A DNA stretch of 33,383 bases, from NCBI GenBank assembly GCA_037441295.1, contig JBBISK010000002.1:1-33383 (forward strand). Direction: 5' to 3'. Within the stretch, counting starts at the first letter, position 1, and every line of letters starts with the position of its first letter. This document shows, piece after piece, positions 9,312-17,158 of this stretch. Both the position numbers and the translations under genes were made by a program. Under the pieces are notes generated by a model, which worked only from the letters and a program-made list of their open reading frames with translations, searched no databases and was not told the origin of the DNA. Source of the stretch: Candidatus Aminicenantes bacterium (GTDB lineage Bacteria > Acidobacteriota > Aminicenantia > Aminicenantales > Saccharicenantaceae).

Positions 9312-10106
9312 TCACCTCCGCGGTTCGCTCCGCAGCCTTCGCTCATTGCCGCTCCCCTCCGGGCCCCAAGTCCAGTAATACGCCACGTAAGCGAAAACCC
9401 GGTCCGGCCCATGAAGGTCCCGGCCGGCGGAGGCTATCAGGACCTGCCCCTTCCCCACGGAAATGAGCGCGCCCAGGTTGACGCCCGTCTCGCCCGACCC
9501 TCCGACCGTCGACCGGGAATGGCCCACGAGCTCGGCGCCCACGGTCAGCGACTTGGAAAGGTCGCGCTCCGCTTCCCAGCCGAACATCCAATAATTCCTG
9601 TTGCCCGCGCCCGGGTTGATCCAGTAGCCGCCGCCGCCGTAGGTCGTCCAGGCCCCCCAGCTCTTCTGCAGCCAGACCGGCAGGAAAGCCTGGACATGGC
9701 CGGCGCCGAGGCCGCGGCCGGGGTTGCCCGCCGGCAGCTCGAGATGGGGGAAGATCCCGACCTGGGGCCGGGACGGGGTTTCAGCCACGAAGCGGAACTT
9801 GACCCCGAGCTCGATGTCGCCGGGGCCGTATTGAAAGGGCATCCCCTTCGGCTTGGCATAGGCCATGGGCAGGATCAGGTGGAGTTGGACGTTCGAGGCC
9901 GCCCCGTAATTGGCCTCGGCGTGCGGCAGCGTTCCGGAAAGAGAGCCGGCGGTGACGGAATGCTGGGAGGCGAGGTAGAACTCCCAATGGTAGAGGTCCA
10001 CGGGAACGGGGTCGTCGGTGAAGAAGGGCGGGCCGCTCCATGAGGCCGGCGCGGAAAGCACGAGCCCGAGAGCCAGCGTGAGGAGGAGGCGGGCATTCCC
10101 CTTCAT
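9312..10106 (-). CDS. Exported protein, probable outer-membrane beta-barrel/transporter
   Basis: Likely start ATG at 10106 (MKGNARLLL signal peptide); GPPFFTDDP N-terminus, GDIELGVKFRF, and alternating aromatic beta-strand pattern ending YVAYYWTW. Confidence 0.65.
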   Translation of the reverse strand: MKGNARLLLTLALGLVLSAPASWSGPPFFTDDPVPVDLYHWEFYLASQHSVTAGSLSGTLPHAEANYGAASNVQLHLILPMAYAKPKGMPFQYGPGDIELGVKFRFVAETPSRPQVGIFPHLELPAGNPGRGLGAGHVQAFLPVWLQKSWGAWTTYGGGGYWINPGAGNRNYWMFGWEAERDLSKSLTVGAELVGHSRSTVGGSGETGVNLGALISVGKGQVLIASAGRDLHGPDRVFAYVAYYWTWGPEGSGNERRLRSEPRR

Positions 10107-10127
10107 TGCGGAAGATCCGTCGGAAAA

Positions 10128-10156
10128 AGTATAGTCCCCGTGGTCCACAGGGTCAA
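10128..10156 (-). promoter_or_regulatory. Promoter with dyad between -35 and -10
   Basis: TTGACC (10156-10151), 17-nt spacer, TATACT (10133-10128); imperfect inverted repeat CCCTGTGG-A-CCACGGGG at 10152-10136. Confidence 0.65.
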
Positions 10157-10194
10157 ACACGGGCGCGGGGGGTTCGGCCGGTGTCGCCTGACCG

Positions 10195-13100
10195 TCAGGC
10201 CGGGGCGCCGTCCTTCGGCTGTTCCGCGGCACGCCTGTTCGCAACCTCCACGGACGTCAGGAGGAGGGGCATGATCACTAGGATGAGCGTCATGCCCACG
10301 GACATGCCCGCGACCACGACGATGGCAAGCGGCCTCTGGATCTGGCTTCCGACACCCCGCGCCAGCGACGCCGGGAGAAGGCCCAGCGCCCCGACGATCC
10401 CACCCATGAGGACCGGGCGGAACTTGTCGCGGGCCGTGAGCAGGACCGCTTCCCGTGAGCCGAGGCCTCGCCGACGCTTCGCGAGATAGTAGGTCACGAG
10501 GATCGAGGAGTTGAGGACGGAAACGCCGATGATGGAGATGAACCCGACCATGGAGGACACACTTAGGGATTCCCGGGCCACGAGGAGGCCCATCAGGCCG
10601 GAGAAGACGGCCAGCAGCGGCGCGACCATGGTGATGACGACGTTCCGGACGGACTGGAAAAGGACATAGAGAACGACGAGGATCAGGACGAACGACAGGG
10701 GCAGGGAGACGAAGAGGCGTTTGAACGACTCCTTCATCTCGCGGAAGACCCCGCTCCATTCCATGAAGTAGCCCCCGGGGAGCTTGATCCGGGAGACCTT
10801 CTCCTGGGCGCGCTTGACCGTTCCGCCCATGTCCTTCGAGGTCACTGTGAACTTGACGGGGATGTAGCGGCGGTAATTCCCGCGGTAGATGAACGAGGCC
10901 CCCGTATCGTAATGCACGCGGGCCACCCGCGACAGGGGGATGACGCCGCCGCCCGGCAGGACAATCGGGCTTGACGCGATCTTCTCGGGTTCCTTGCCGT
11001 AGGAAGTCGGATACCGGACGAGCAGGGAAAAGTTCCTGGCCCCTTCGATAACCCGGCTGATCTCCTTCCCGCCGAGGGCGGCCGAGACCGTGTCCAAGAC
11101 GTCCTCCATGGTCAATCCCATGGCGGCGGCGTTCTCGCGGACGACGTCAATGAGGAGATTGGGCTGTCCCAGCTCCTTGAGGACGCCGACGTCCTCGATC
11201 CCGGGCGTGGCCGCCAGCTTCTCGCTGACGGCGCCTGCGAGGCTCTCGAGGACGCCCAGGTCCTCGCCGAAGATCTTGACGGAATTCTCGCCCTTGACCC
11301 CGGACATCGTTTCGTGGAGCTGGTCCTCGCTGTACTGAGTGATGGTGATGTCGGCGTTGGGGAACATGGCTTTCAGTCCGCCGCGGACCTGCTCCTCGAG
11401 GTCCGCCTTGTGCCGCCCCGCCGGCCACTGCCGGTAGGGCTTGAGGATGAGGCAGTATTCTGTGTTGAAGGGTCCGCTCGGGTCCGTCCCGTCCTCGGGG
11501 CGGCCCGTCTGCGATTCCACCGTCTCGACCTCGGAGAGGCCGGCCAGGTATCTCCTGACCTGGTTGGCGTACTCGTTGCTCTTTTTGAGGGAAATCGTAT
11601 AGGGGAACATGATGCGGATGTAGACGTTGCCCTCGTCCATGACCGGCAGGAACTGGGTGCCGATCGAGCGGAATCCGAGGGCAAGGCCCGCTGCCACGAT
11701 GAGGGCCGCGACGGCGACGGTCCTCCTGCGACGGGCGGCGAGCCAATCCACGAGCCCGACGTACTTTTCCCGGACCGCGGCAAGGACCCTCGTCTCACGG
11801 TCGCGGGCCCGGCCGAGGAACGCAGCCTTGCCGGCGATAAGGTAGGTGAAGGTCAGGGACAGGGTCAGGAGGATCGTATAGAAATAGGTCTTCGCCATCG
11901 GCGAGAAGACCTGCGCCTCCGCGCCCTTCATCAGGAAGATCGGGATGAAAGCCAGGAAAATGATGCCGACTGAAAAGACCATGGGCCGGGCGACCTCTTC
12001 GGTCGCGGCCTGGACGGAGGCGGCCCCCGGCCCCCGCGTCTTCGAGATCCGGAAATAATCTTCGATGAGGATCAGGGGGATGTCGACGATGATTCCGAAG
12101 TCGATGGCGCCGATGGACAGGAGGTTGGCGGATTCCCCTCGGAGCGCCATCAGGGCCAGGGTGATGGCCAGGGACACGGGGATGACGAGGGCGGTGATGA
12201 CCGCGGCCCGGGCGTTGCCCAGGAAGAAGAGGAGGGCCACGGCGACGAGGAAGATCCCGCCCGCCGCCGTTTCGATGACCTTCCGGACGACGGTGTTGAT
12301 CAGGTCCCAACGCTCGTAGAACGGGATGACCTTGATCCCGGCCGGCAGGATCCGGGTGTTGAGCTCCGCCATCTTCTCGTGGAGGGACCGGATCGAGGGG
12401 ATGCTCTTGGCGTCCTTCTTCAGCAGCACGATGCCCATGACGACGTCGTCCTCCGCGCCGAGGCCGACGATCCCGGTCCGCGGGATGTTGGCGATGTTCA
12501 CCTCTCCGACGTTCCGGACAAGAATCGCCTGGCCGTTCCGGGAGGCGACGAGGGTGTTCTCGACGTCCTCGACGCTCCGGATCAGCCCCAAGCCCCGGAC
12601 CATGTAATACTGGTCCCCCATCTCGACGACGCGGCCGCCGACGTTCAGGTTGGACTTTTCCATGGAGTCGATGACCTGGGACAGGGAGATGTCGTACTTG
12701 ATCAGGTTCTCGGGGCGGACGGTGACGACGTAGGCCTTGATGTATCCCCCCCAGCTGCCCACGTCCTCGACGCCGCTGGCCGTCTTGAGATGGCGGGCCA
12801 CGGTCCAGTCCTCGAGCGTCCGCAGCTCCATGAGGTTGTTCGACCCCTCGACGCGGTACCGCATGACCTCCCCGACCATGCTGGGGATGATGTCCGGCCG
12901 GGCGTTCTCGGGCAGACTGACGCCGGAGATCCTGTTGATGACCTGCTGCTTGGCGTCCTTGTAGCTCGTGCCGTAGGTGAAGTTGCACTTGATGTCGGAG
13001 AGCCCGTAGAGCGAGATGGAATTGACCCCGCTCTGTTCCTGCATTCCGGCCAGGGTGATCTCCAGAGGGACGGTGATCTGCCGCTCGACCTCCTCCGCGG

Positions 13101-13266
13101 ACTTGCCCTCGTAGATCGTGACGACCTCGACGATGGCCGGCGAGGGATCGGGGAAGGCCTCGACGTTCAGGTCCTTAACGAAGAAGAACGACAGGGCGAA
13201 CAGGGCGGTGGCGAACAGCAGGAAGAGGGCCTTGTGCGTCAGGACGAACGCGACCCAACGTTTCAT
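10195..13266 (-). CDS. czcA: Heavy-metal efflux RND permease, CzcA/CusA family
   Basis: True start ATG at 13266 (MKRWVAF; overlaps the czcB stop); 1023 aa; VEAFPD, SAEEVERQIT, ANLLSIGAIDFGIIVD, GRPEDGTDP, RPVLM and QRPLAIVV motifs. Confidence 0.9.
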   Translation of the reverse strand: MKRWVAFVLTHKALFLLFATALFALSFFFVKDLNVEAFPDPSPAIVEVVTIYEGKSAEEVERQITVPLEITLAGMQEQSGVNSISLYGLSDIKCNFTYGTSYKDAKQQVINRISGVSLPENARPDIIPSMVGEVMRYRVEGSNNLMELRTLEDWTVARHLKTASGVEDVGSWGGYIKAYVVTVRPENLIKYDISLSQVIDSMEKSNLNVGGRVVEMGDQYYMVRGLGLIRSVEDVENTLVASRNGQAILVRNVGEVNIANIPRTGIVGLGAEDDVVMGIVLLKKDAKSIPSIRSLHEKMAELNTRILPAGIKVIPFYERWDLINTVVRKVIETAAGGIFLVAVALLFFLGNARAAVITALVIPVSLAITLALMALRGESANLLSIGAIDFGIIVDIPLILIEDYFRISKTRGPGAASVQAATEEVARPMVFSVGIIFLAFIPIFLMKGAEAQVFSPMAKTYFYTILLTLSLTFTYLIAGKAAFLGRARDRETRVLAAVREKYVGLVDWLAARRRRTVAVAALIVAAGLALGFRSIGTQFLPVMDEGNVYIRIMFPYTISLKKSNEYANQVRRYLAGLSEVETVESQTGRPEDGTDPSGPFNTEYCLILKPYRQWPAGRHKADLEEQVRGGLKAMFPNADITITQYSEDQLHETMSGVKGENSVKIFGEDLGVLESLAGAVSEKLAATPGIEDVGVLKELGQPNLLIDVVRENAAAMGLTMEDVLDTVSAALGGKEISRVIEGARNFSLLVRYPTSYGKEPEKIASSPIVLPGGGVIPLSRVARVHYDTGASFIYRGNYRRYIPVKFTVTSKDMGGTVKRAQEKVSRIKLPGGYFMEWSGVFREMKESFKRLFVSLPLSFVLILVVLYVLFQSVRNVVITMVAPLLAVFSGLMGLLVARESLSVSSMVGFISIIGVSVLNSSILVTYYLAKRRRGLGSREAVLLTARDKFRPVLMGGIVGALGLLPASLARGVGSQIQRPLAIVVVAGMSVGMTLILVIMPLLLTSVEVANRRAAEQPKDGAPA

Positions 13267-14327
13267 CAGGATTTCTCCAGGTCGATGGCGGACGTGGCGA
13301 TCTCCTCCCCCTCCCGGAGCCCGGCCACGGCCACCTCGGTCTCGGAGACTTCGTGGAGCAGGCTTACCGCCTGACGCTCGAAGACGCCGTTCCGGCGGAC
13401 GAAGACGGAGAACTGGCCGTCTTTGTAGAGCAGGCACGCCTTGGGCACGACGGGCATCATCCGCTCCGATTCGAGGATCTTGATCTTCAGGAACATGTTC
13501 TGCTTGAAGATGTCCTGGCGGCGCGAGGGACGGATGAAGGTCTTGATCGTCCTGGCATCTGGGTCCTCCGCCCCGCTGACGTAACTGACACGCCCCTCGA
13601 ACGCGACGCCGGGGGCCACGTCGGTCGTGAACGTGACGTCCTGTCCGGTCCGGATCCTCCCGCTGTCGGTGTCGTAGAGGTTGGCCACGATGACGACCCT
13701 GTCCGGGCACAGGACGTAGGCCACGGAGGCCGAGGCTTGGAGGCGGTCCCCGATATGGGCCGAGATGTCCGCCGCGCAGCCGTCGATGGGGGACCGGAGG
13801 ACCATCTCGTCGGTGAAGCCGTCCGACGGGGCGACGCCGTAGAGCTCGAGCCTGCGCCTCCATCCTTCGGCCGAGGCCTTGAGCTGCTCGTAGGACGCCT
13901 CGCTCGCCAGAAGGTCGTTCCTGGTAACGGCGCCGACATCGATGAGCTTCTCATTGAGCCGGTAGATCCGCTCGGCCTGCAGCATTTGGGCCGTCGTCGA
14001 GAGGCAACTCGCGTACGCGTCGCTGATCTCGGGGCTGCGGACCGTCATCAGCGCCTGGCCCTTGCGGACCGGGTCGCCGATCCTGACCAGGATCCGGCTC
14101 ACGGCACCGGCCACGGGCGCGAGGATCTTCGCGCCGCCGTCGAGGTCCGCCTGGACGGCGCCCGTCGCCTCGATATAGACCGGGACTTTCCGCGAAACGA
14201 CCCTGGCGACCGGGATGGCCTTTTCCCGGGCCGCGGCGGGGTCGTTCGGGGCGGCCCCGCTCCTGGAGCAGGCCGCCGCCCAAAGGACAACGAGGCCCAA
14301 GGCCCCGACCCTGAACTTTTCTTTCAT
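13266..14327 (-). CDS. czcB: RND efflux periplasmic adaptor (MFP), CzcB-like
   Basis: Likely start ATG at 14327 after GGGAGGGA (overlaps the czcC stop); lipobox-like WAAAC; APVAG..GDPVRKGQ and LRSPIDG lipoyl motifs; GLREGEEI. Confidence 0.85.
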   Translation of the reverse strand: MKEKFRVGALGLVVLWAAACSRSGAAPNDPAAAREKAIPVARVVSRKVPVYIEATGAVQADLDGGAKILAPVAGAVSRILVRIGDPVRKGQALMTVRSPEISDAYASCLSTTAQMLQAERIYRLNEKLIDVGAVTRNDLLASEASYEQLKASAEGWRRRLELYGVAPSDGFTDEMVLRSPIDGCAADISAHIGDRLQASASVAYVLCPDRVVIVANLYDTDSGRIRTGQDVTFTTDVAPGVAFEGRVSYVSGAEDPDARTIKTFIRPSRRQDIFKQNMFLKIKILESERMMPVVPKACLLYKDGQFSVFVRRNGVFERQAVSLLHEVSETEVAVAGLREGEEIATSAIDLEKS

Positions 14328-15562
14328 GGGATCCCTCCCGTATAGACTTTCAGAAGCTCCTGGTCCAGCCGGCACTGGACGAGGGCCTGGTGGTACTTGA
14401 GCATGAAATCCCGGTAGGTCCTCTCCGTGTCCATGAGGTCGAGGACGGTGATGCCCCCCATGGCAAAGGCCTGTCGGCTTTTTTCTAGGAGATCGTTCAG
14501 CTCTCGCTCCCTCGTCCGGTAGGAATCGAAGACCTTGAAGGCCGACCGGTAGTTGTTGAGCCCCTGGCGGACATCGGCGTCGATCTGCCGCCGCGTCTTC
14601 TCGACCTGGGCCTGGAGCTGGCCGAGCTGGGACTTCGAGATTAGGATGTCCTTTTGGTTCCGGTTGAAGACGGGCAGGTCCAGGCCGACGCCGACGCCGA
14701 ACGCGGGGTCGTGACCGGGCCCGAGGGAATCGTACTCGACCCCGACGGTGAGGTCGGGGATGGCGCCGGCCTTGGCCAGCCGGACGGCGCTCCGGGCCGC
14801 GTCGACCTGTTTTGCCAGGGCCAGGAGGTCGTAGCGGTTCTGGTTCGCGGCCCGGAGGAGCGTCTCCGCGTCATAGTCGACGAAGTCCGGCCTCAGGGGC
14901 GGCTCGAACGGCATGAGCGGCTCGGAACTCCCCAGGAGGACCTGGAAAAGCTCCAGGTCGTTCGCGGACTGGTTCTCCAGGCGCGCCAGCTCGTTCTCGA
15001 GCTCGACCCGTGAAAGCCTCAGCTTCTCGTGCTCGATCAGGGTCAGGAATCCCGCAGCGTACCGCCTGTCGGAAACGGCCAGGACCTTGTCGAGGTTCCC
15101 GACCTCCTCGCGGACGAAGCCGACGTTCAGGTCGTCGAGGACGAGGTCGTTGAAGAGCGAATAGAAGCCGACCAGGAGATTGCGGATGACCTCCTGGTGC
15201 CCGAGGCGGGAGGCTTCGAGGTTCGAAGCGGCCAGACCTTTCCGGAGCCCGCGCTTGCCCCCGATCTCGATGAGCTGGTCCAGCCGGGCCGTCCACTGAG
15301 TGTTGTCGCCGATAAAGACCCCGCCCCGGCCGAACTGGATGTCCGTGTAGTCGAAGGACAGGCTCGGGTTCGGCAGCAGCCGGGCCCCCACGGCTTCGGC
15401 GGTCGCCTTGTCGAGCTCGTACCTGTGAATGATGATGTCGATATTGTTTCGATAGAAGAGCTCAAGAGCCCGGTCCAGGGTGATCTCTCGGGCCCCGGCC
15501 AGGGCGGTCGCCGCCAGGAGCGGGACCATCAGGAACGCGGAGAACTTCCTCAATCGCGCCAT
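14324..15562 (-). CDS. czcC: TolC-family outer membrane efflux protein, CzcC-like
   Basis: ATG at 15562 after GGAGG; signal peptide; ARLLPNPSL, IEIGGKRGLR, PDLTVG and LPVFNRNQ motifs. Confidence 0.88.
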   Translation of the reverse strand: MARLRKFSAFLMVPLLAATALAGAREITLDRALELFYRNNIDIIIHRYELDKATAEAVGARLLPNPSLSFDYTDIQFGRGGVFIGDNTQWTARLDQLIEIGGKRGLRKGLAASNLEASRLGHQEVIRNLLVGFYSLFNDLVLDDLNVGFVREEVGNLDKVLAVSDRRYAAGFLTLIEHEKLRLSRVELENELARLENQSANDLELFQVLLGSSEPLMPFEPPLRPDFVDYDAETLLRAANQNRYDLLALAKQVDAARSAVRLAKAGAIPDLTVGVEYDSLGPGHDPAFGVGVGLDLPVFNRNQKDILISKSQLGQLQAQVEKTRRQIDADVRQGLNNYRSAFKVFDSYRTRERELNDLLEKSRQAFAMGGITVLDLMDTERTYRDFMLKYHQALVQCRLDQELLKVYTGGIP

Positions 15563-15640
15563 GCCTAACCTCCGTCTCCATGCGCCTGCGCGCACACCCA
15601 TAGTGACAAGGGAGCCGACGGGACGACGAAGAGGTCAGGC
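15563..15640 (-). promoter_or_regulatory. Stem sequestering the czcC Shine-Dalgarno
   Basis: GCCUGACCUC (15640-15631) pairs with GAGGUUAGGC (15572-15563): 10 bp with 1 G-U; extended after a 2-nt bulge by CGUC/GACG (15628-15625 with 15576-15573). Confidence 0.7.
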
Positions 15641-15913
15641 CGAGGGGGGGGACCTCGAGGAAAGGCGGGGAATGAAGGGGAAATCGAAGTCCGGGACCCG
15701 GCACGGCTTCCGGGAGAGCAGGACAACGAAGAGCGGCAGGAAGAGGACTGCGGCGATGATCGAGCCGAGGACGGATTGCTGGAGTTGGCAGGCGGGGCAC
15801 CGGACGTCCCCCGCGGGGCCCTTCTCGATGTGGGTGAAGTTGACCAGGGCGACGACGGCGAAAAAGAGAATGACGAACGTCAGTCGAAGGGTCCGGAGCG
15901 AGCGTTGGTTCAT
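15635..15913 (-). CDS. DUF2946/CutF/CruR-like leader peptide (92 aa)
   Basis: ATG at 15913; basic N-terminus, TM/signal helix, H-x10-CPAC, C-terminal SSRSPPSA; immediately upstream of metal efflux genes. Confidence 0.75.
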   Translation of the reverse strand: MNQRSLRTLRLTFVILFFAVVALVNFTHIEKGPAGDVRCPACQLQQSVLGSIIAAVLFLPLFVVLLSRKPCRVPDFDFPFIPRLSSRSPPSA

Positions 15914-15925
15914 GGCTTTGTCGCG

Positions 15926-15934
15926 ATTATAGCA
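15926..15934 (-). promoter_or_regulatory. Extended -10 promoter of leader-czcCBA operon
   Basis: TGCTATAAT, with the -10 hexamer ending 12 nt before the leader ATG. Confidence 0.7.
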
Positions 15935-16000
15935 CAACGCGGCCGCCAGATGATACCGCCGCAACGGACGGCCGCGCGACGCCCACCGGGCCGGGCAGCC

Positions 16001-17158
16001 TTAGCGATAATCCTCGCCCTCGCCCAGGACGGCGTGGACCCTGGGCATCCATTCGCTGATGCGGATCTCCTGCGGGCACTTCGGCTCGCACTCGCCGCAC
16101 TGGACGCAGGCGGAGGCGCGCTCGCCTTCGGCGACGAACCGGGCGTAGAGCAGGCGGCTCGTCGCCGGGTCCTCGTGGATGCGGCCGTTGTTGTAGAGCT
16201 CGAAGACGCGCGGGATGGCGACGCCGTTCGGACAGGGCAGGCAGTAGCCGCACTGGGTGCATGGGATGGGCGTCGTGGCGAGGTAGGCCCGGCGGACGCG
16301 GGCGATGAGCTCGTGCTCGGCGGGCCCCATGGACCCGGCTGCGGCCCCTTCGGCGGCGCGCAGGTTCGCCTCGACCTCGCTCATCCGGCCCATGCCGCTC
16401 AGGACGACGGCGACCTCCGGCCGGTCCCAGACCCAGCGCAGGGCCCATTCGGCCGGCGTCCGGTTCGGTTCGAAGGCGTCGAAGAGCTCCCGGACGGCGC
16501 GGGGCGGCCGGGCCAGCCGGCCCCCGAAAAGGGGTTCCATGACGACGACGGCCAGGCCTCTCGCCGCAGCGTACTTCACGCCCTCGGTCCCGGCCTGGTT
16601 CTCGGTGTCCATGTAGTTGTACTGGACCTGGCAGAACGTCCAGCCGCCGTAGCCGTCGACGATCGCCTTGAACACGTCGAACTTGTCGTGGAAGGAGAAG
16701 CCCAGGGCGCCGACGCGGCCGTCCCTGATCGCGGCCTCGGCCCGGGCGAGGACGCCCAGGTCGAGGACCGAGCGCCATCTCTCGGCGTTCAGGGCGTGGA
16801 GGAGGTACAGCTCGACCCGGTCCGTGCCGAGCCGCTTCAGCTGCTGGTCGAGATAGACGTCGAAATCACCGGCCTGCTTGAGGAGCCAGACGGGGGATTT
16901 CGTGGCCAGGCGGACCTTAGCCCGGTAGCCATCCCCGAGGGCCTCGCCGACGACGGCCTCGCTCGCGCCGTTGTGGTAGGGATAGGCCGTATCGACGTAA
17001 TTGACGCCGCGGTCGATCGCCGTCCGGATCATCCGTACGGTCGCCTGCCGGTCCACCTTATCGCTCTGCGGCATCCCGTCGAGCGTCGGCAGCCGCATGC
17101 AGCCGAAGCCGAGGACGGAAGCGCGCCAGTCGAGCCGGCCGAATTTCCGATAGACCAT
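16001..17158 (-). CDS. Aldo/keto reductase with C-terminal 4Fe-4S dicluster
   Basis: ATG at 17158 after AGGAGG; LGFGCMRLP, YVDTAYPY, LATK and GFSFH motifs; CTQCGYCLPCP and CVQCGECEPKCP. Confidence 0.93.
   Translation of the reverse strand: MVYRKFGRLDWRASVLGFGCMRLPTLDGMPQSDKVDRQATVRMIRTAIDRGVNYVDTAYPYHNGASEAVVGEALGDGYRAKVRLATKSPVWLLKQAGDFDVYLDQQLKRLGTDRVELYLLHALNAERWRSVLDLGVLARAEAAIRDGRVGALGFSFHDKFDVFKAIVDGYGGWTFCQVQYNYMDTENQAGTEGVKYAAARGLAVVVMEPLFGGRLARPPRAVRELFDAFEPNRTPAEWALRWVWDRPEVAVVLSGMGRMSEVEANLRAAEGAAAGSMGPAEHELIARVRRAYLATTPIPCTQCGYCLPCPNGVAIPRVFELYNNGRIHEDPATSRLLYARFVAEGERASACVQCGECEPKCPQEIRISEWMPRVHAVLGEGEDYR

What the first reader, a model, noticed from the sequence alone, without database searches (positions are those of the whole stretch)
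15562..15655. Anti-SD stem couples the leader stop codon to czcC initiation: candidate ribosome-stalling switch
The last codon and stop of the leader plus 4 nt (GCC UGA CCUC) pair with GAGGUUAGGC. This sequence contains the czcC SD and ends at the base before the AUG, 72 nt downstream. A further 4 bp follow a 2-nt bulge. A ribosome paused on RSPP (15655-15644) would cover the 5' arm and free the SD. This matches the mechanism described for CutF-cutO (Rhodobacter multicopper oxidase) and resembles CruR-bfrG (Bordetella TonB transporter). Here the controlled output is a tripartite RND efflux pump, apparently in a distant lineage.
Basis: partly seen in the sequence, partly recalled or inferred. 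Interest (0 to 1): 0.82.

Follow-up and report, generated by a model that had tools for sequence, protein, structure and literature searches.

The report
Arrest-type leader peptide gating a metal pump
A 92-residue leader gene ending in a ribosome-stalling motif sits before a heavy-metal efflux pump operon, and its stop-codon region pairs with the pump's ribosome-binding site; this looks like an unannotated branch of the known copper-sensing CruR/CutF leader family, not a new kind of switch.

Summary
On the minus strand, GCCUGACCUC (15640-15631) pairs with GAGGUUAGGC (15572-15563), and CGUC/GACG follows a UU bulge. Pair probabilities are 0.91-0.99. The pump's ribosome-binding site is among the most closed 1.3% of 377 comparable sites in this genome.

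The leader (15913-15635) has no Pfam hit. It belongs to a family of at least 90 members, apparently Aminicenantes (Acidobacteriota). All have a hydrophobic N-terminus, CPAC, a 44-residue linker, R-x-P-P (mostly RSPP), two residues, then stop. These are the hallmarks published for DUF2946 (CruR: CXXC, 45 residues, RAPP). Profile comparison with a bona fide DUF2946 protein gives 83% probability.

Among family leaders, 48 precede outer-membrane efflux proteins and 38 precede TonB-dependent receptors.

- Efflux-pump proteins are already reported as the commonest neighbours of CutF-like leaders, so that output is not new.
- I found no covariation, and a 67%-identical relative moves the anti-SD into the proline codons.
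- A ribosome arrested at RSP/P would cover only the basal 6-7 nt of the arm.
- A C>G bubble and a rho gene leave CruR-like attenuation open.

Verdict: new member of a known kind; moderate interest.

The parts
15635..15913 (-). Leader ORF: 92 codons plus the UGA stop. Start ATG 15913; the protein ends ...SSRSPPSA.
   Evidence: ORF list. Gapless alignment with 21 homologues from related genomes. A profile of the family finds 309 cluster representatives at E<=1e-3. No Pfam or NCBIfam hit.
15788..15799 (-). CPAC motif (residues 39-42), the putative metal-binding CXXC.
   Evidence: C39 is invariant and P40/A41 nearly invariant in A1. CPAC occurs in 85 of 96 regex hits. It aligns with the CVAC of a bona fide DUF2946 protein.
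15644..15655 (-). RSPP arrest-like motif (residues 87-90). It lies 44 residues after CPAC and two codons before the stop.
   Evidence: R87, P89 and P90 are invariant. The spacing is 44 in 22 of 22 and in 91 of 96 regex hits. RSPP is reported as arrest-permissive (PMC12992588, passages).
15635..15637 (-). Leader stop codon UGA, located inside the 5' arm.
15625..15640 (-). 5' arm (anti-SD side): GCCUGACCUC (15640-15631), UU bulge, CGUC (15628-15625).
15597..15622 (-). First hairpin predicted inside the loop of the main helix.
   Evidence: MFE structure; coordinates derived.
15580..15595 (-). GC-rich hairpin (GUGCGCGCAGGCGCAU) inside the loop, just 5' of the SD. A hairpin of this kind is predicted at the same place in L002, L124, L003 and L123.
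   Evidence: MFE structures; sequence.
15563..15576 (-). 3' arm: GACG (15576-15573) plus GAGGUUAGGC (15572-15563). It contains the SD GGAGG (15573-15569) and the whole SD-to-AUG spacer.
14324..15562 (-). Outer-membrane efflux protein (OEP/TolC-like, 'czcC'), 412 aa with a signal-peptide-like N-terminus.
   Evidence: Pfam PF02321, E 3.8e-46.
13266..14327 (-). Periplasmic adaptor (membrane fusion protein). Its ATG overlaps the OEP stop (ATGA).
   Evidence: Pfam HlyD_D23, E 7.3e-25. TIGR01730, 118 bits, over its cut-off. Overlap shown.
10195..13266 (-). RND permease of the CusA/CzcA heavy-metal type. Its ATG overlaps the adaptor's stop (TGATG).
   Evidence: Pfam ACR_tran, E 1.4e-199. TIGR00914, 674.5 bits against a cut-off of 701.45, far above the multidrug RND models. 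Start located.
15620..15780 (-). C>G bubble on the mRNA strand: C 40-51% and G 17-29% in 78-nt windows. This is rut-like composition.

Best explanation
The 92-codon ORF is a cis-acting regulatory leader peptide. It belongs to a divergent, Pfam-unrecognised branch of the DUF2946 (CruR/CutF-like) metal-sensing arrest peptides.

Proposed mechanism:
1. The N-terminal hydrophobic segment targets the nascent chain to the membrane.
2. The CPAC motif then lies a fixed 44 residues from the arrest motif, so it has just left the ribosome when the ribosome reaches R-S-P/P.
3. [quoted passage not shown] Whether it occurs, or how long it lasts, depends on whether CPAC holds a metal ion.
4. In free mRNA, a 10+4 bp helix joins the leader's stop-codon region to the SD and spacer of the outer-membrane efflux gene, and keeps that RBS closed.
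5. A ribosome dwelling at the arrest site or at the stop codon holds the 5' arm single-stranded and partly opens the RBS.
6. The adaptor and RND genes follow through overlapping stop/start codons (ATGA, TGATG), so this one RBS gates the whole pump.

Shown here: the anatomy, the family, the fixed spacings, the unusually closed RBS and the gene neighbourhood.

Inferred, not shown: arrest at RSPP, metal binding, the sign of the response (metal increasing the dwell time, as in CutF) and which metal.
For: Helix and RBS:
- The helix is present and stable.
- The RBS opening energy of 18.1 kcal/mol is in the top 1.3% (5 of 377) of comparable RBSs in this genome.
- Modelled opening energy falls to 10.7 with nt -12..+14 held single-stranded, and to 11.3 with a terminating ribosome.

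Family:
- 22 of 22 relatives align without gaps from the hydrophobic segment to the C-terminal motif. F17, H28, C39, R87, P89 and P90 are invariant.
- Of 96 regex hits, the CxxC-to-RxPP spacing is 44 in 91, and exactly 2 residues follow PP in 93.
- The same hallmarks define DUF2946: CXXC, RAPP, 45 residues with spacing kept within 1-2, and RAPP three residues from the end (Roy 2022, PMC9426467, passages).

Link to DUF2946:
- hhalign of the family alignment against a bona fide DUF2946 protein (L122) gives 83% probability, E 8.8e-6, over 63 gapless columns from CXXC to RxPP.
- PF11162 is the commonest weak Pfam hit, in 16 of 132 members.

Neighbourhood and family-wide RNA features:
- Of 91 family leaders, 48 precede OEP genes and 38 precede TonB-dependent receptors. 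These are the two commonest neighbour types of CutF-like proteins (PMC9973294, section 11).
- The RBS after the leader is more closed than other RBSs in the same loci. Medians are 13.3 vs 8.5 and 10.9 vs 5.9 kcal/mol.
- The tail-versus-SD duplex beats the null median in 85% (OEP) and 100% (TBDT) of loci.
- The first Pro codon is CCU in 32 of 48 and 29 of 38 leaders, against 23% and 34% of Pro codons in the downstream genes. CCU followed by the next Pro codon creates CCUCC.

Literature:
- RSPP and RDPP are partially permissive for arrest and are under-represented in proteomes (PMC12992588, passages).
Against: - The leader itself has no DUF2946 hit at E<=1. No relative's genome has a hit over the Pfam cut-off (0 of 61).
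- Whole-region fold energy is ordinary: z = -0.62.
- For this locus the duplex is only at rank 0.063 of its null.
- No covariation was found: 1 double change in 14 pairs, and 385 of 500 shuffles are as good.
- In L123 (67% identical leader) and L125 the stop-spanning helix is replaced by pairing of the SD with the Pro codons.
- The SD core's partners lie at +16..+22, mostly outside an arrested ribosome's footprint: 0.20 inside and 0.79 in the next 9 nt.
- A -14.4 kcal/mol alternative duplex remains after the 5' arm is covered through +16.
- Across the OEP class the median modelled gain from arrest is only 1.2 kcal/mol.
- The family statistics are not corrected for relatedness.
- No expression or ribosome-occupancy data exist. 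No RNA run was listed (see Tried and rejected).
Confidence: 0.6

Rival explanations
1. CruR-like transcription attenuation is the main control. The C-rich, G-poor end of the leader and the spacer form a Rho loading site. A ribosome arrested at RSPP blocks Rho and lets transcription run into the pump genes. Release of the arrest exposes the site and terminates transcription. The SD helix would be secondary.
For: - A C>G bubble (C 40-51%, G 17-29%) runs from about 15780 to 15620.
- Family-wide, the tail plus spacer has C 0.36 / G 0.15 (OEP class) and C 0.26 / G 0.12 (TBDT class).
- The genome has rho at 638.9 bits, over its cut-off.
- The motif set (CXXC, RxPP, fixed spacing) is the CruR one, and CruR works through Rho (PMC9426467, passages).
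- No intrinsic terminator was found.
Against: - The spacer is 72 nt and strongly structured. CruR's is 162 nt, and lack of structure mattered there.
- The RBS is exceptionally closed, which Rho control alone does not require.
- C-richness partly follows from Pro/Ser codons and anti-SD elements.
- The two mechanisms are not exclusive.
Confidence: 0.17
2. Plain translational coupling with no ligand sensing. Any ribosome that finishes the leader unzips the stop-spanning helix, so pump translation simply follows leader translation. The RSPP motif only slows the ribosome near the stop.
For: - The SD core's partners sit in the zone covered by a terminating rather than an arrested ribosome: 0.79 against 0.20.
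- The modelled opening energy is similar for arrested and terminating ribosomes, 10.7 against 11.3.
Against: - It does not explain the invariant Cys and His, nor the exact 44-residue spacing across about 90 members at 20-40% identity.
- It does not explain why the same leader also heads TonB-receptor genes.
Confidence: 0.1
3. The small protein works in trans as a membrane or periplasmic metal-binding accessory or regulator of the pump, in the manner suggested for CzcI. The helix is an incidental feature of a GC- and C-rich spacer.
For: - CzcI, upstream of czcCBA, is grouped with CutF-like proteins and is thought to be a metal-sensing regulator (PMC9973294 discussion passage).
- In the window's subfamily the leader has two hydrophobic stretches.
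- The region's fold z-score is ordinary.
Against: - In the 44-residue linker only the length is conserved, not the sequence. That fits a nascent-chain ruler better than a folded domain.
- R-x-P-P plus two residues plus stop is kept in 93 of 96, whereas CzcI lacks the proline motif.
- The RBS is in the top 1.3% for closure.
Confidence: 0.08

Closest known systems
CruR (Bp2923) of Bordetella pertussis, a DUF2946 upstream ORF before the TonB-dependent transporter bfrG (Roy et al. 2022, PMC9426467; abstract and passages read)
   Same: - CXXC motif, and a C-terminal R-x-P-P arrest-type motif a few residues before the stop.
- Fixed spacing between the two motifs: 45 there, 44 here.
- N-terminal hydrophobic segment.
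- First gene of a metal-transport operon.
- C>G bubble at the 3' end of the leader.
- 38 members of the present family also precede TonB-dependent receptors.
   Different: - RSPP here instead of RAPP; two residues after PP instead of three.
- The spacer is 72 nt and structured, with the SD buried, against 162 nt and unstructured.
- The output is an efflux pump, not an importer.
- There is no Pfam-level match.
CutF-cutO of Rhodobacter capsulatus (Ozturk et al. 2023, PMC9973294, sections 10-12 and passages; 2025 preprint 10.1101/2025.02.05.636593, abstract, introduction and discussion read)
   Same: - Short spacer with a stem-loop that shields the SD of the next gene.
- The leader is needed in cis.
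- Detoxification output.
- In the model, a dwelling ribosome melts the stem.
   Different: - CutF has CXXXC and a PPP motif, and depends on EF-P.
[quoted passage not shown]
- Its output is a Tat-exported multicopper oxidase.
- Here the motifs are CXXC and RSPP, and the output is a Sec-type OEP followed by the adaptor and RND genes.
CutF-like proteins upstream of RND efflux genes (list D of Ozturk et al. 2023: 5,334 proteins, bioinformatic only)
   Same: A small protein with a PP motif in its last 15 residues and a signal peptide, less than 100 nt upstream of an OEP/CusC/CzcC gene. OEP is stated to be the most frequent neighbour class.
   Different: - No member of that class has been tested experimentally, as far as the text I read shows.
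[quoted passage not shown]
- The supplementary lists, which might already include Aminicenantes members, could not be opened.
RAPP-type arrest peptides ApdA/ApdP/ApcA and SecM (Morici et al. 2024, PMC10951233; Fujiwara et al., EMBO J 2025, PMC12992588; passages read)
   Same: - An invariant Arg, a small residue, then Pro-Pro near the C-terminus of a small membrane-targeted protein encoded upstream of the regulated gene.
- SecM-type logic, in which arrest opens a downstream RBS.
   Different: - Those peptides monitor Sec/YidC activity, not a metal.
- RSPP is only 'partially permissive' in the ApdA/ApdP context.
- The 2025 survey covered RAPP and RGPP upstream ORFs, so an RSPP family would largely escape it.
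CzcI of Cupriavidus metallidurans, upstream of czcCBA (as cited in PMC9973294, discussion passage)
   Same: A small protein encoded immediately upstream of a czcCBA-type RND operon and grouped with CutF-like proteins.
   Different: CzcI lacks the C-terminal proline motif. It is thought to act as a protein regulator.

Membership tests
Pfam DUF2946 (PF11162) | Match to the Pfam HMM over the gathering score (23.7 bits) | tested here: not met
   - The window protein has no PF11162 hit at E<=1 or E<=0.1.
- 16 of 132 family members have weak hits, best E 3.4e-4.
- 0 of 61 related genomes have a six-frame hit over the cut-off, and none of the listed sub-threshold hits lies at a locus of this family.
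DUF2946 / CruR-CutF-like leader superfamily | Remote homology to a bona fide member by profile comparison | tested here: inconclusive
   hhalign of A3 (132 sequences) against L122 (PF11162, 26.6 bits, over the cut-off) gives probability 83%, E 8.8e-6, over 63 gapless columns. Against L121 (29.3 bits) it gives 57%, E 1e-4. An ESM Atlas cluster with PF11162 on 54% of its members ranks 24th at score 0.91.
DUF2946 / CruR-CutF-like leader superfamily | Conserved CXXC (or CXXXC) metal-binding motif | tested here: met
   CPAC at residues 39-42. C39 is invariant in 22 of 22 and in 132 of 132. Three relatives have CPAG.
DUF2946 / CruR-CutF-like leader superfamily | C-terminal RAPP-like or proline-rich motif within a few residues of the stop | tested here: met
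   RSPP at residues 87-90 of 92. Motif counts over 96 regex hits: RSPP 81, RAPP 10, RDPP 2, RGPP 2, RRPP 1. Exactly two residues follow PP in 93 of 96.
DUF2946 / CruR-CutF-like leader superfamily | Spacing between the two motifs conserved to within 1-2 residues (45 in CruR) | tested here: met
   44 residues in 22 of 22 and in 91 of 96 regex hits. The exceptions are three members of a second family (45), one regex artefact and one with 43. The bona fide DUF2946 protein L122 also has 44, by my count on the sequence printed.
DUF2946 / CruR-CutF-like leader superfamily | N-terminal signal peptide or membrane anchor | tested here: inconclusive
   A basic N-terminus followed by a roughly 14-residue hydrophobic stretch is seen in all 22 aligned members. 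No signal-peptide or topology predictor was available.
DUF2946 / CruR-CutF-like leader superfamily | First gene of an operon for metal homeostasis (OEP/RND, TonB-dependent transporters) | tested here: met
   OEP, adaptor and CusA/CzcA-type RND follow in the window. Of 91 family leaders, 48 precede OEP and 38 precede TBDT genes.
CutF-type SD-unmasking switch | Stem-loop in a short (<100 nt) spacer that shields the SD of the next gene | tested here: met
   The spacer is 72 nt. The helix covers the SD and its spacer with pair probability 0.91-0.99. The RBS is in the top 1.3% for closure. This is prediction only.
CutF-type SD-unmasking switch | PPP motif with EF-P dependence, and metal-induced stalling | tested here: not met
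   The motif is R-S-P-P-S-A, with no PPP. An efp gene is present at 238.8 bits. EF-P dependence and metal-induced stalling cannot be tested with these tools.
CruR-type Rho-dependent attenuator | Long unstructured spacer, a C>G bubble (rut) and Rho | tested here: inconclusive
   The C>G bubble is present and so is rho. But the spacer is short (72 nt) and highly structured.
RAPP-type ribosome arrest peptides | [quoted passage not shown] | not testable with these tools
   Only the motif is shown. Arg is invariant here and irreplaceable in ApdA/ApdP. Ser at position x is 'partially permissive' (PMC12992588; PMC10951233).

The most novel reading that the evidence does not exclude
One sensor module (hydrophobic anchor, CPAC, 44-residue ruler, RxPP, two codons, stop) may drive opposite outputs. 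The sign would be set by where the anti-SD sits relative to the arrested ribosome.

Before importers (TonB receptors), the anti-SD lies in the Pro codons, inside the arrested ribosome. Arrest then means ON, and metal-triggered release means OFF.

Before exporters such as this pump, the anti-SD often lies just 3' of the stop codon, outside the arrested ribosome but under a terminating one. Metal-triggered release of the arrest would then let ribosomes run to the stop and open the pump's RBS.

For: the most probable partner of the central SD base lies within -11..+15 in 31 of 36 TBDT loci, against 16 of 48 OEP loci (Fisher 1.7e-6).

Against:
- Only 3 phylogenetically independent pairs exist, giving median p = 1.
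- A third of OEP loci have the anti-SD inside the footprint.
- The modelled opening energies for arrested and terminating ribosomes are alike in the window.
Probability: 0.15. Interest if true: 0.75.

Novelty: new member of a known kind. Interest (0 to 1): 0.45.

Why it matters
If correct, this extends the copper/metal-sensing arrest-leader mechanism beyond its two tested cases. Those are a Bordetella importer and a Rhodobacter oxidase. The extension would cover a heavy-metal RND pump in an uncultured phylum-level lineage (Aminicenantes), through a clade that Pfam does not annotate and that RAPP/RGPP-based surveys would largely miss.

The family also offers a clean natural data set for open questions about these leaders. 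It has about 90 members with an exact 44-residue ruler, exactly two codons after the arrest site, and two output classes (importer and exporter). That data set bears on two questions:
- why the distance between the sensor motif and the arrest motif is fixed;
- how the same module can switch importers off and exporters on.

For genome annotation, it shows that the 'hypothetical' small ORF and the 72-nt spacer are probably the regulator of this pump. No two-component or other regulator gene was seen among the neighbours I annotated.

Tried and rejected
Searches and tests that gave nothing:
- Pfam and NCBIfam on the leader gave nothing usable.
- The consensus promoter/terminator scan of 15400-16150 found 0 sites of either kind.
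- The covariation test on the five closest loci had no signal.
- The search for related loci with the single leader found no relative in genome contigs or in metagenome contigs. The degenerate alignments A2 and A5 then worked.
- The look-up of sequencing runs listed no RNA holder. One DNA run holds the stretch and may be its source. I did not lay reads.
- The independent-pairs test of the importer/exporter difference in anti-SD placement had no power: 3 pairs.
- GC content does not explain anti-SD placement within the OEP class: medians 0.50 and 0.49.
- A scan of the window's own genome for other small hydrophobic ORFs ending R[ASGD]PP plus at most 4 residues found only this leader and one unconvincing hit.

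Considered and rejected:
- The in-frame ATG at 15601 as the OEP start. It has no SD, and the signal-peptide-like sequence begins at 15562. The upstream frame is closed in L003 and L123, by my reading of the sequences printed.
- An intrinsic terminator in the spacer. The GC hairpin has no U tract.

Not done or not available:
- Supplementary files of PMC9973294 (list D, File S1) were not opened. They may already contain members of this family.
- Literature searches: CutF/cutO/stalling, RAPP/arrest peptide/ApdA, DUF2946 (16 papers), and Aminicenantes plus 'arrest peptide' (0 papers). I did not search for RSPP as a term across the library.
Full report
WHAT IS THERE

All features are on the minus strand. 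A 92-codon ORF starts at ATG 15913 and ends ...SSRSPPSA, with stop UGA at 15637-15635. A 72-nt spacer follows, then a gene whose product is an outer-membrane efflux protein (ATG 15562; Pfam OEP, E 3.8e-46). Next come a periplasmic adaptor (HlyD_D23, E 7.3e-25) and an RND permease (ACR_tran, E 1.4e-199).

The permease scores 674.5 bits on the CusA/CzcA heavy-metal model TIGR00914 (cut-off 701.45). It scores at most 389 bits on multidrug RND models. The adaptor's ATG overlaps the OEP stop (ATGA), and the permease's ATG overlaps the adaptor's stop (TGATG). The OEP ribosome-binding site is therefore the one free-standing entry point for ribosomes into the pump genes.

THE OBSERVATION

- RSPP at 15655-15644.
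- GCCUGACCUC (15640-15631) pairing with GAGGUUAGGC (15572-15563), which ends one base before the AUG.
- After a UU bulge, CGUC (15628-15625) pairing with GACG (15576-15573).
- The SD GGAGG (15573-15569) inside the 3' arm.

The helix is in the MFE and centroid folds. Its ten outer pairs have probabilities of 0.91-0.99 whether 116, 261 or 451 nt are folded.

IS IT MORE THAN CHANCE?

The total fold energy of the region is unremarkable for this 65% G+C sequence: z = -0.62.

Against a null that recodes the last codons synonymously and shuffles the 12 nt after the stop, the tail-versus-SD duplex (-22.6 kcal/mol) ranks 0.063.

A genome-level control is clearer. The free energy needed to open the RBS (SD through AUG) is 18.1 kcal/mol. 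Among 377 other crudely called genes of the same genome with a GGAGG SD, the median is 7.9 and the 95th percentile is 16.1. Only 5 reach 18.1.

THE LEADER IS A REAL, CONSERVED GENE

A six-frame search of 60 related genomes gave 21 further full-length homologues. They align with the window's protein without a single gap from the hydrophobic N-terminal segment to the C-terminal motif, at 19-72% identity. F17, H28, C39, R87, P89 and P90 are invariant.

A profile of these 22 sequences finds 309 cluster representatives at E<=1e-3 among 1.84 billion proteins. A degenerate-pattern scan of species-representative genomes returned 78 loci. Of these records, 38 are titled Candidatus Aminicenantes, Aminicenantales or Aminicenantaceae, and 37 carry the generic title 'uncultured Eubacteriales bacterium'. 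The remaining three are titled 'Acidobacteriota bacterium', 'Bacterium isolate' and 'uncultured bacterium'. The ESM Atlas's nearest clusters are also mostly Acidobacteriota. I infer that the window comes from an Aminicenantes-type acidobacterium.

FAMILY SIGNATURE

A regular expression run over all loci gave 96 distinct hits.

Spacing between CxxC and RxPP: 44 residues in 91 of 96. The other five are:
- three members of a second family (45 residues, see below);
- one artefact (L074, where the expression caught an earlier CNFC; its CPAC is at 44 by my count);
- one true 43 (L091).
One of the 91 (L086) is a spurious frame.

Residues after PP: exactly two in 93 of 96.

Motif: RSPP 81, RAPP 10, RDPP 2, RGPP 2, RRPP 1.

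In the 44-residue linker the length is conserved but the sequence is not.

RELATION TO DUF2946

Roy et al. 2022 (PMC9426467; abstract and passages) define DUF2946 by four features:
- a CXXC motif;
- a C-terminal RAPP motif, three residues from the end in CruR;
- a regulatory role for that spacing.
The present family has the same architecture.

By sequence the link is weak:
- The window's protein has no PF11162 hit.
- 16 of 132 members have weak hits, best E 3.4e-4. PF11162 is still by far the commonest family hit.
- No related genome has a hit over the cut-off: 0 of 61.

Bona fide DUF2946 is rare in the phylum sample: 2 of 201 genomes. Profile comparison of the family with those two proteins gives 83% (E 8.8e-6, 63 gapless columns from CXXC to RxPP) and 57% probability. 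One of them (L122) reads CVACHF, then 44 residues, then RAPP (my count).

I therefore treat the family as a divergent branch of the CruR/CutF-like superfamily, below Pfam's reach. I do not treat it as a Pfam-level member.

NEIGHBOURS

I dropped the spurious hit and the three second-family members, which leaves 91 distinct leaders:
- 48 precede OEP genes, with spacers of 50-77 nt;
- 38 precede TonB-dependent receptors (Plug plus CarboxypepD_reg), with spacers of 54-121 nt (pooled median 98 over the 40 receptor-linked spacers, which still include two second-family loci);
- 2 precede something else;
- 3 have no callable downstream gene.
Pfam labelled 20 of these downstream genes. The rest were classed by BLASTP against the labelled ones.

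Ozturk et al. 2023 (PMC9973294; sections 10-12 read) already state two things. OEP proteins of RND systems are the most frequent downstream neighbours of their 5,334 'CutF-like' proteins, followed by TonB-like proteins. Most of the spacers are under 100 nt. An RND pump as output is thus in print at the bioinformatic level. No experiment on such a case appears in the text I read. [quoted passage not shown] The supplementary lists could not be opened.

IS SD MASKING A FAMILY TRAIT?

Yes, but the exact helix is not.

The RBS after the leader is more closed than other SD-bearing RBSs in the same loci. Medians are 13.3 vs 8.5 kcal/mol for the OEP class (n = 48 vs 52) and 10.9 vs 5.9 for the TBDT class (n = 38 vs 22). 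Mann-Whitney p values are 1e-8 and 2e-5, not corrected for relatedness.

The leader tail is more complementary to the SD region than the recoding/shuffling null. Mean z is -0.93 for OEP and -1.52 for TBDT. The share of loci within the null's best 5% is 21% and 42%.

The first Pro codon is CCU in 32 of 48 and 29 of 38 leaders. CCU makes up 23% and 34% of Pro codons in the downstream genes. CCU followed by the next Pro codon gives CCUCC, the SD complement.

Among the window's closest relatives:
- L002 and L124 keep the stop-spanning helix.
- L003 keeps a shifted version. Its UAG stop still pairs, through a wobble swap.
- L123 (67% identical leader) and L125 pair the SD with the Pro codons instead.
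On the five-sequence alignment, 81.4% of cells pair, against 31-51% with slid partners. There is one double change, and 385 of 500 shuffles do as well, so covariation gives no support.

GEOMETRY

[quoted passage not shown] 2024, PMC10951233, passages). Take 15649, the first base of the first Pro codon, as +1. Then:
- the stop codon is +13 to +15;
- the 5' arm is +10 to +19;
- the inner CGUC is +22 to +25.

An arrested ribosome should cover mRNA to about +13 to +16. That figure is recalled from toeprinting and helicase work and was not checked here. It would therefore open the basal 6-7 pairs. It would not open the CCUC (+16 to +19) that pairs with the SD core.

In the partition function, 0.20 of the SD core's pairing is with bases up to +16, and 0.79 is with the next nine bases, which only a terminating ribosome would cover.

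Modelled opening energy falls from 18.1 kcal/mol to 10.7 with -12..+14 held open, and to 11.3 with a terminating ribosome. Other C/U-rich segments of the spacer can re-pair with the SD.

A CLASS DIFFERENCE WORTH NOTING

The central SD base's most probable partner lies inside the arrested footprint (-11..+15) in 31 of 36 TonB-receptor loci, mostly in the Pro codons. The same is true of only 16 of 48 OEP loci. Another 16 OEP loci, including the window, place it at +16..+25 (Fisher p = 1.7e-6).

G+C content does not explain this within the OEP class.

On a tree of the leaders there are only 3 independent contrasts on supported branches, and the sign test is uninformative. The difference could therefore reflect a few historical events. 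This observation underlies the 'novel case'.

RIVAL MECHANISM

The last ~160 nt before the spacer hairpins form a marked C>G bubble, with C 40-51% and G 17-29%. The genome encodes Rho at 638.9 bits and EF-P at 238.8 bits. CruR acts by blocking Rho loading at such a bubble.

A CruR-like transcriptional layer cannot be excluded, and it may coexist with SD masking. Against it as the main mechanism: the spacer is short and highly structured, and the RBS is exceptionally closed.

VERDICT

The interpretation points at the right family and the right general mechanism. Three things remain unshown or weaker than claimed:
- the claimed novelty (RND output) is already published as a genomic association;
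- the specific helix is a lineage-local solution, not a conserved structure;
- arrest, metal sensing and the sign of regulation are all inferred.

The finding is a new, unannotated member (indeed a whole Aminicenantes clade) of a known kind of regulatory leader.

Noticed in passing
L031, L034, L036 (genomes G005, G004, G002, same genus as the window): A second small-ORF family occurs in the same genus. It reads HHHED..C-x-L-C, then 45 residues, then D-R-A-P-P, two residues and stop. It has sub-threshold PF11162 hits (E 0.002-0.008, 18-20 bits). It looks like a bridge between canonical DUF2946 and the RSPP family. It was not found in the window's own genome with PF11162.
   Followed up: partly
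family loci L004-L120: Leaders before TonB-dependent receptors differ from those before OEP genes in three ways. Their spacers are longer (pooled median 98 nt against a 50-77 nt range). Their stop codon is TAA in 31 of 38, whereas TGA is commonest in the OEP class (24 of 48). Their anti-SD lies mostly in the Pro codons.
   Followed up: partly
window 15647-15649 and the same codon in family loci: There is a strong preference for CCU at the first Pro codon of RxPP: 61 of 86 leaders, against 23-34% of Pro codons in the downstream genes. This creates CCUCC. The window itself uses CCC CCC and places its anti-SD after the stop instead.
   Followed up: yes
window 15599-15601, minus strand: An ATG in frame with the OEP gene lies 39 nt upstream of its likely start, inside the loop of the helix and without an SD. 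L002 has an in-frame ATG at the same place. In L003 and L123 the frame is closed (my reading).
   Followed up: partly
window 15580-15595, minus strand: A GC-rich hairpin lies just 5' of the SD. A similar hairpin is predicted at this position in all four close relatives folded (L002, L124, L003, L123). It could be a pause or folding-nucleation element.
   Followed up: no
window 15914-15964, minus strand; L002, L124, L123: The in-frame translation upstream of the leader's ATG reads ..LCYN.. in the window, L002, L124 and L123. This suggests a conserved 5' UTR or promoter sequence, or an earlier start. No sigma-70-like promoter was found by the simple scan.
   Followed up: no
window 9312-10244, minus strand: A 310-residue ORF with a signal-like N-terminus lies directly after the RND gene. 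It has no Pfam hit at E<=1e-5. It may be a fourth operon member.
   Followed up: no
L122 (G227) and L121 (G159): These are the only two over-threshold DUF2946 genes in a sample of 201 genomes of the phylum. Both have CXXC and R-[AG]-P-P. The gene after L122's looks like a secreted TonB-receptor-type protein, but that is by eye only.
   Followed up: no
L043-L112 record titles: 37 of the 78 named records that carry this Aminicenantes-type leader are titled 'uncultured Eubacteriales bacterium'. All 37 are third-party (TPA) assemblies. This is probably a placeholder taxonomy rather than a real occurrence in Firmicutes.
   Followed up: no
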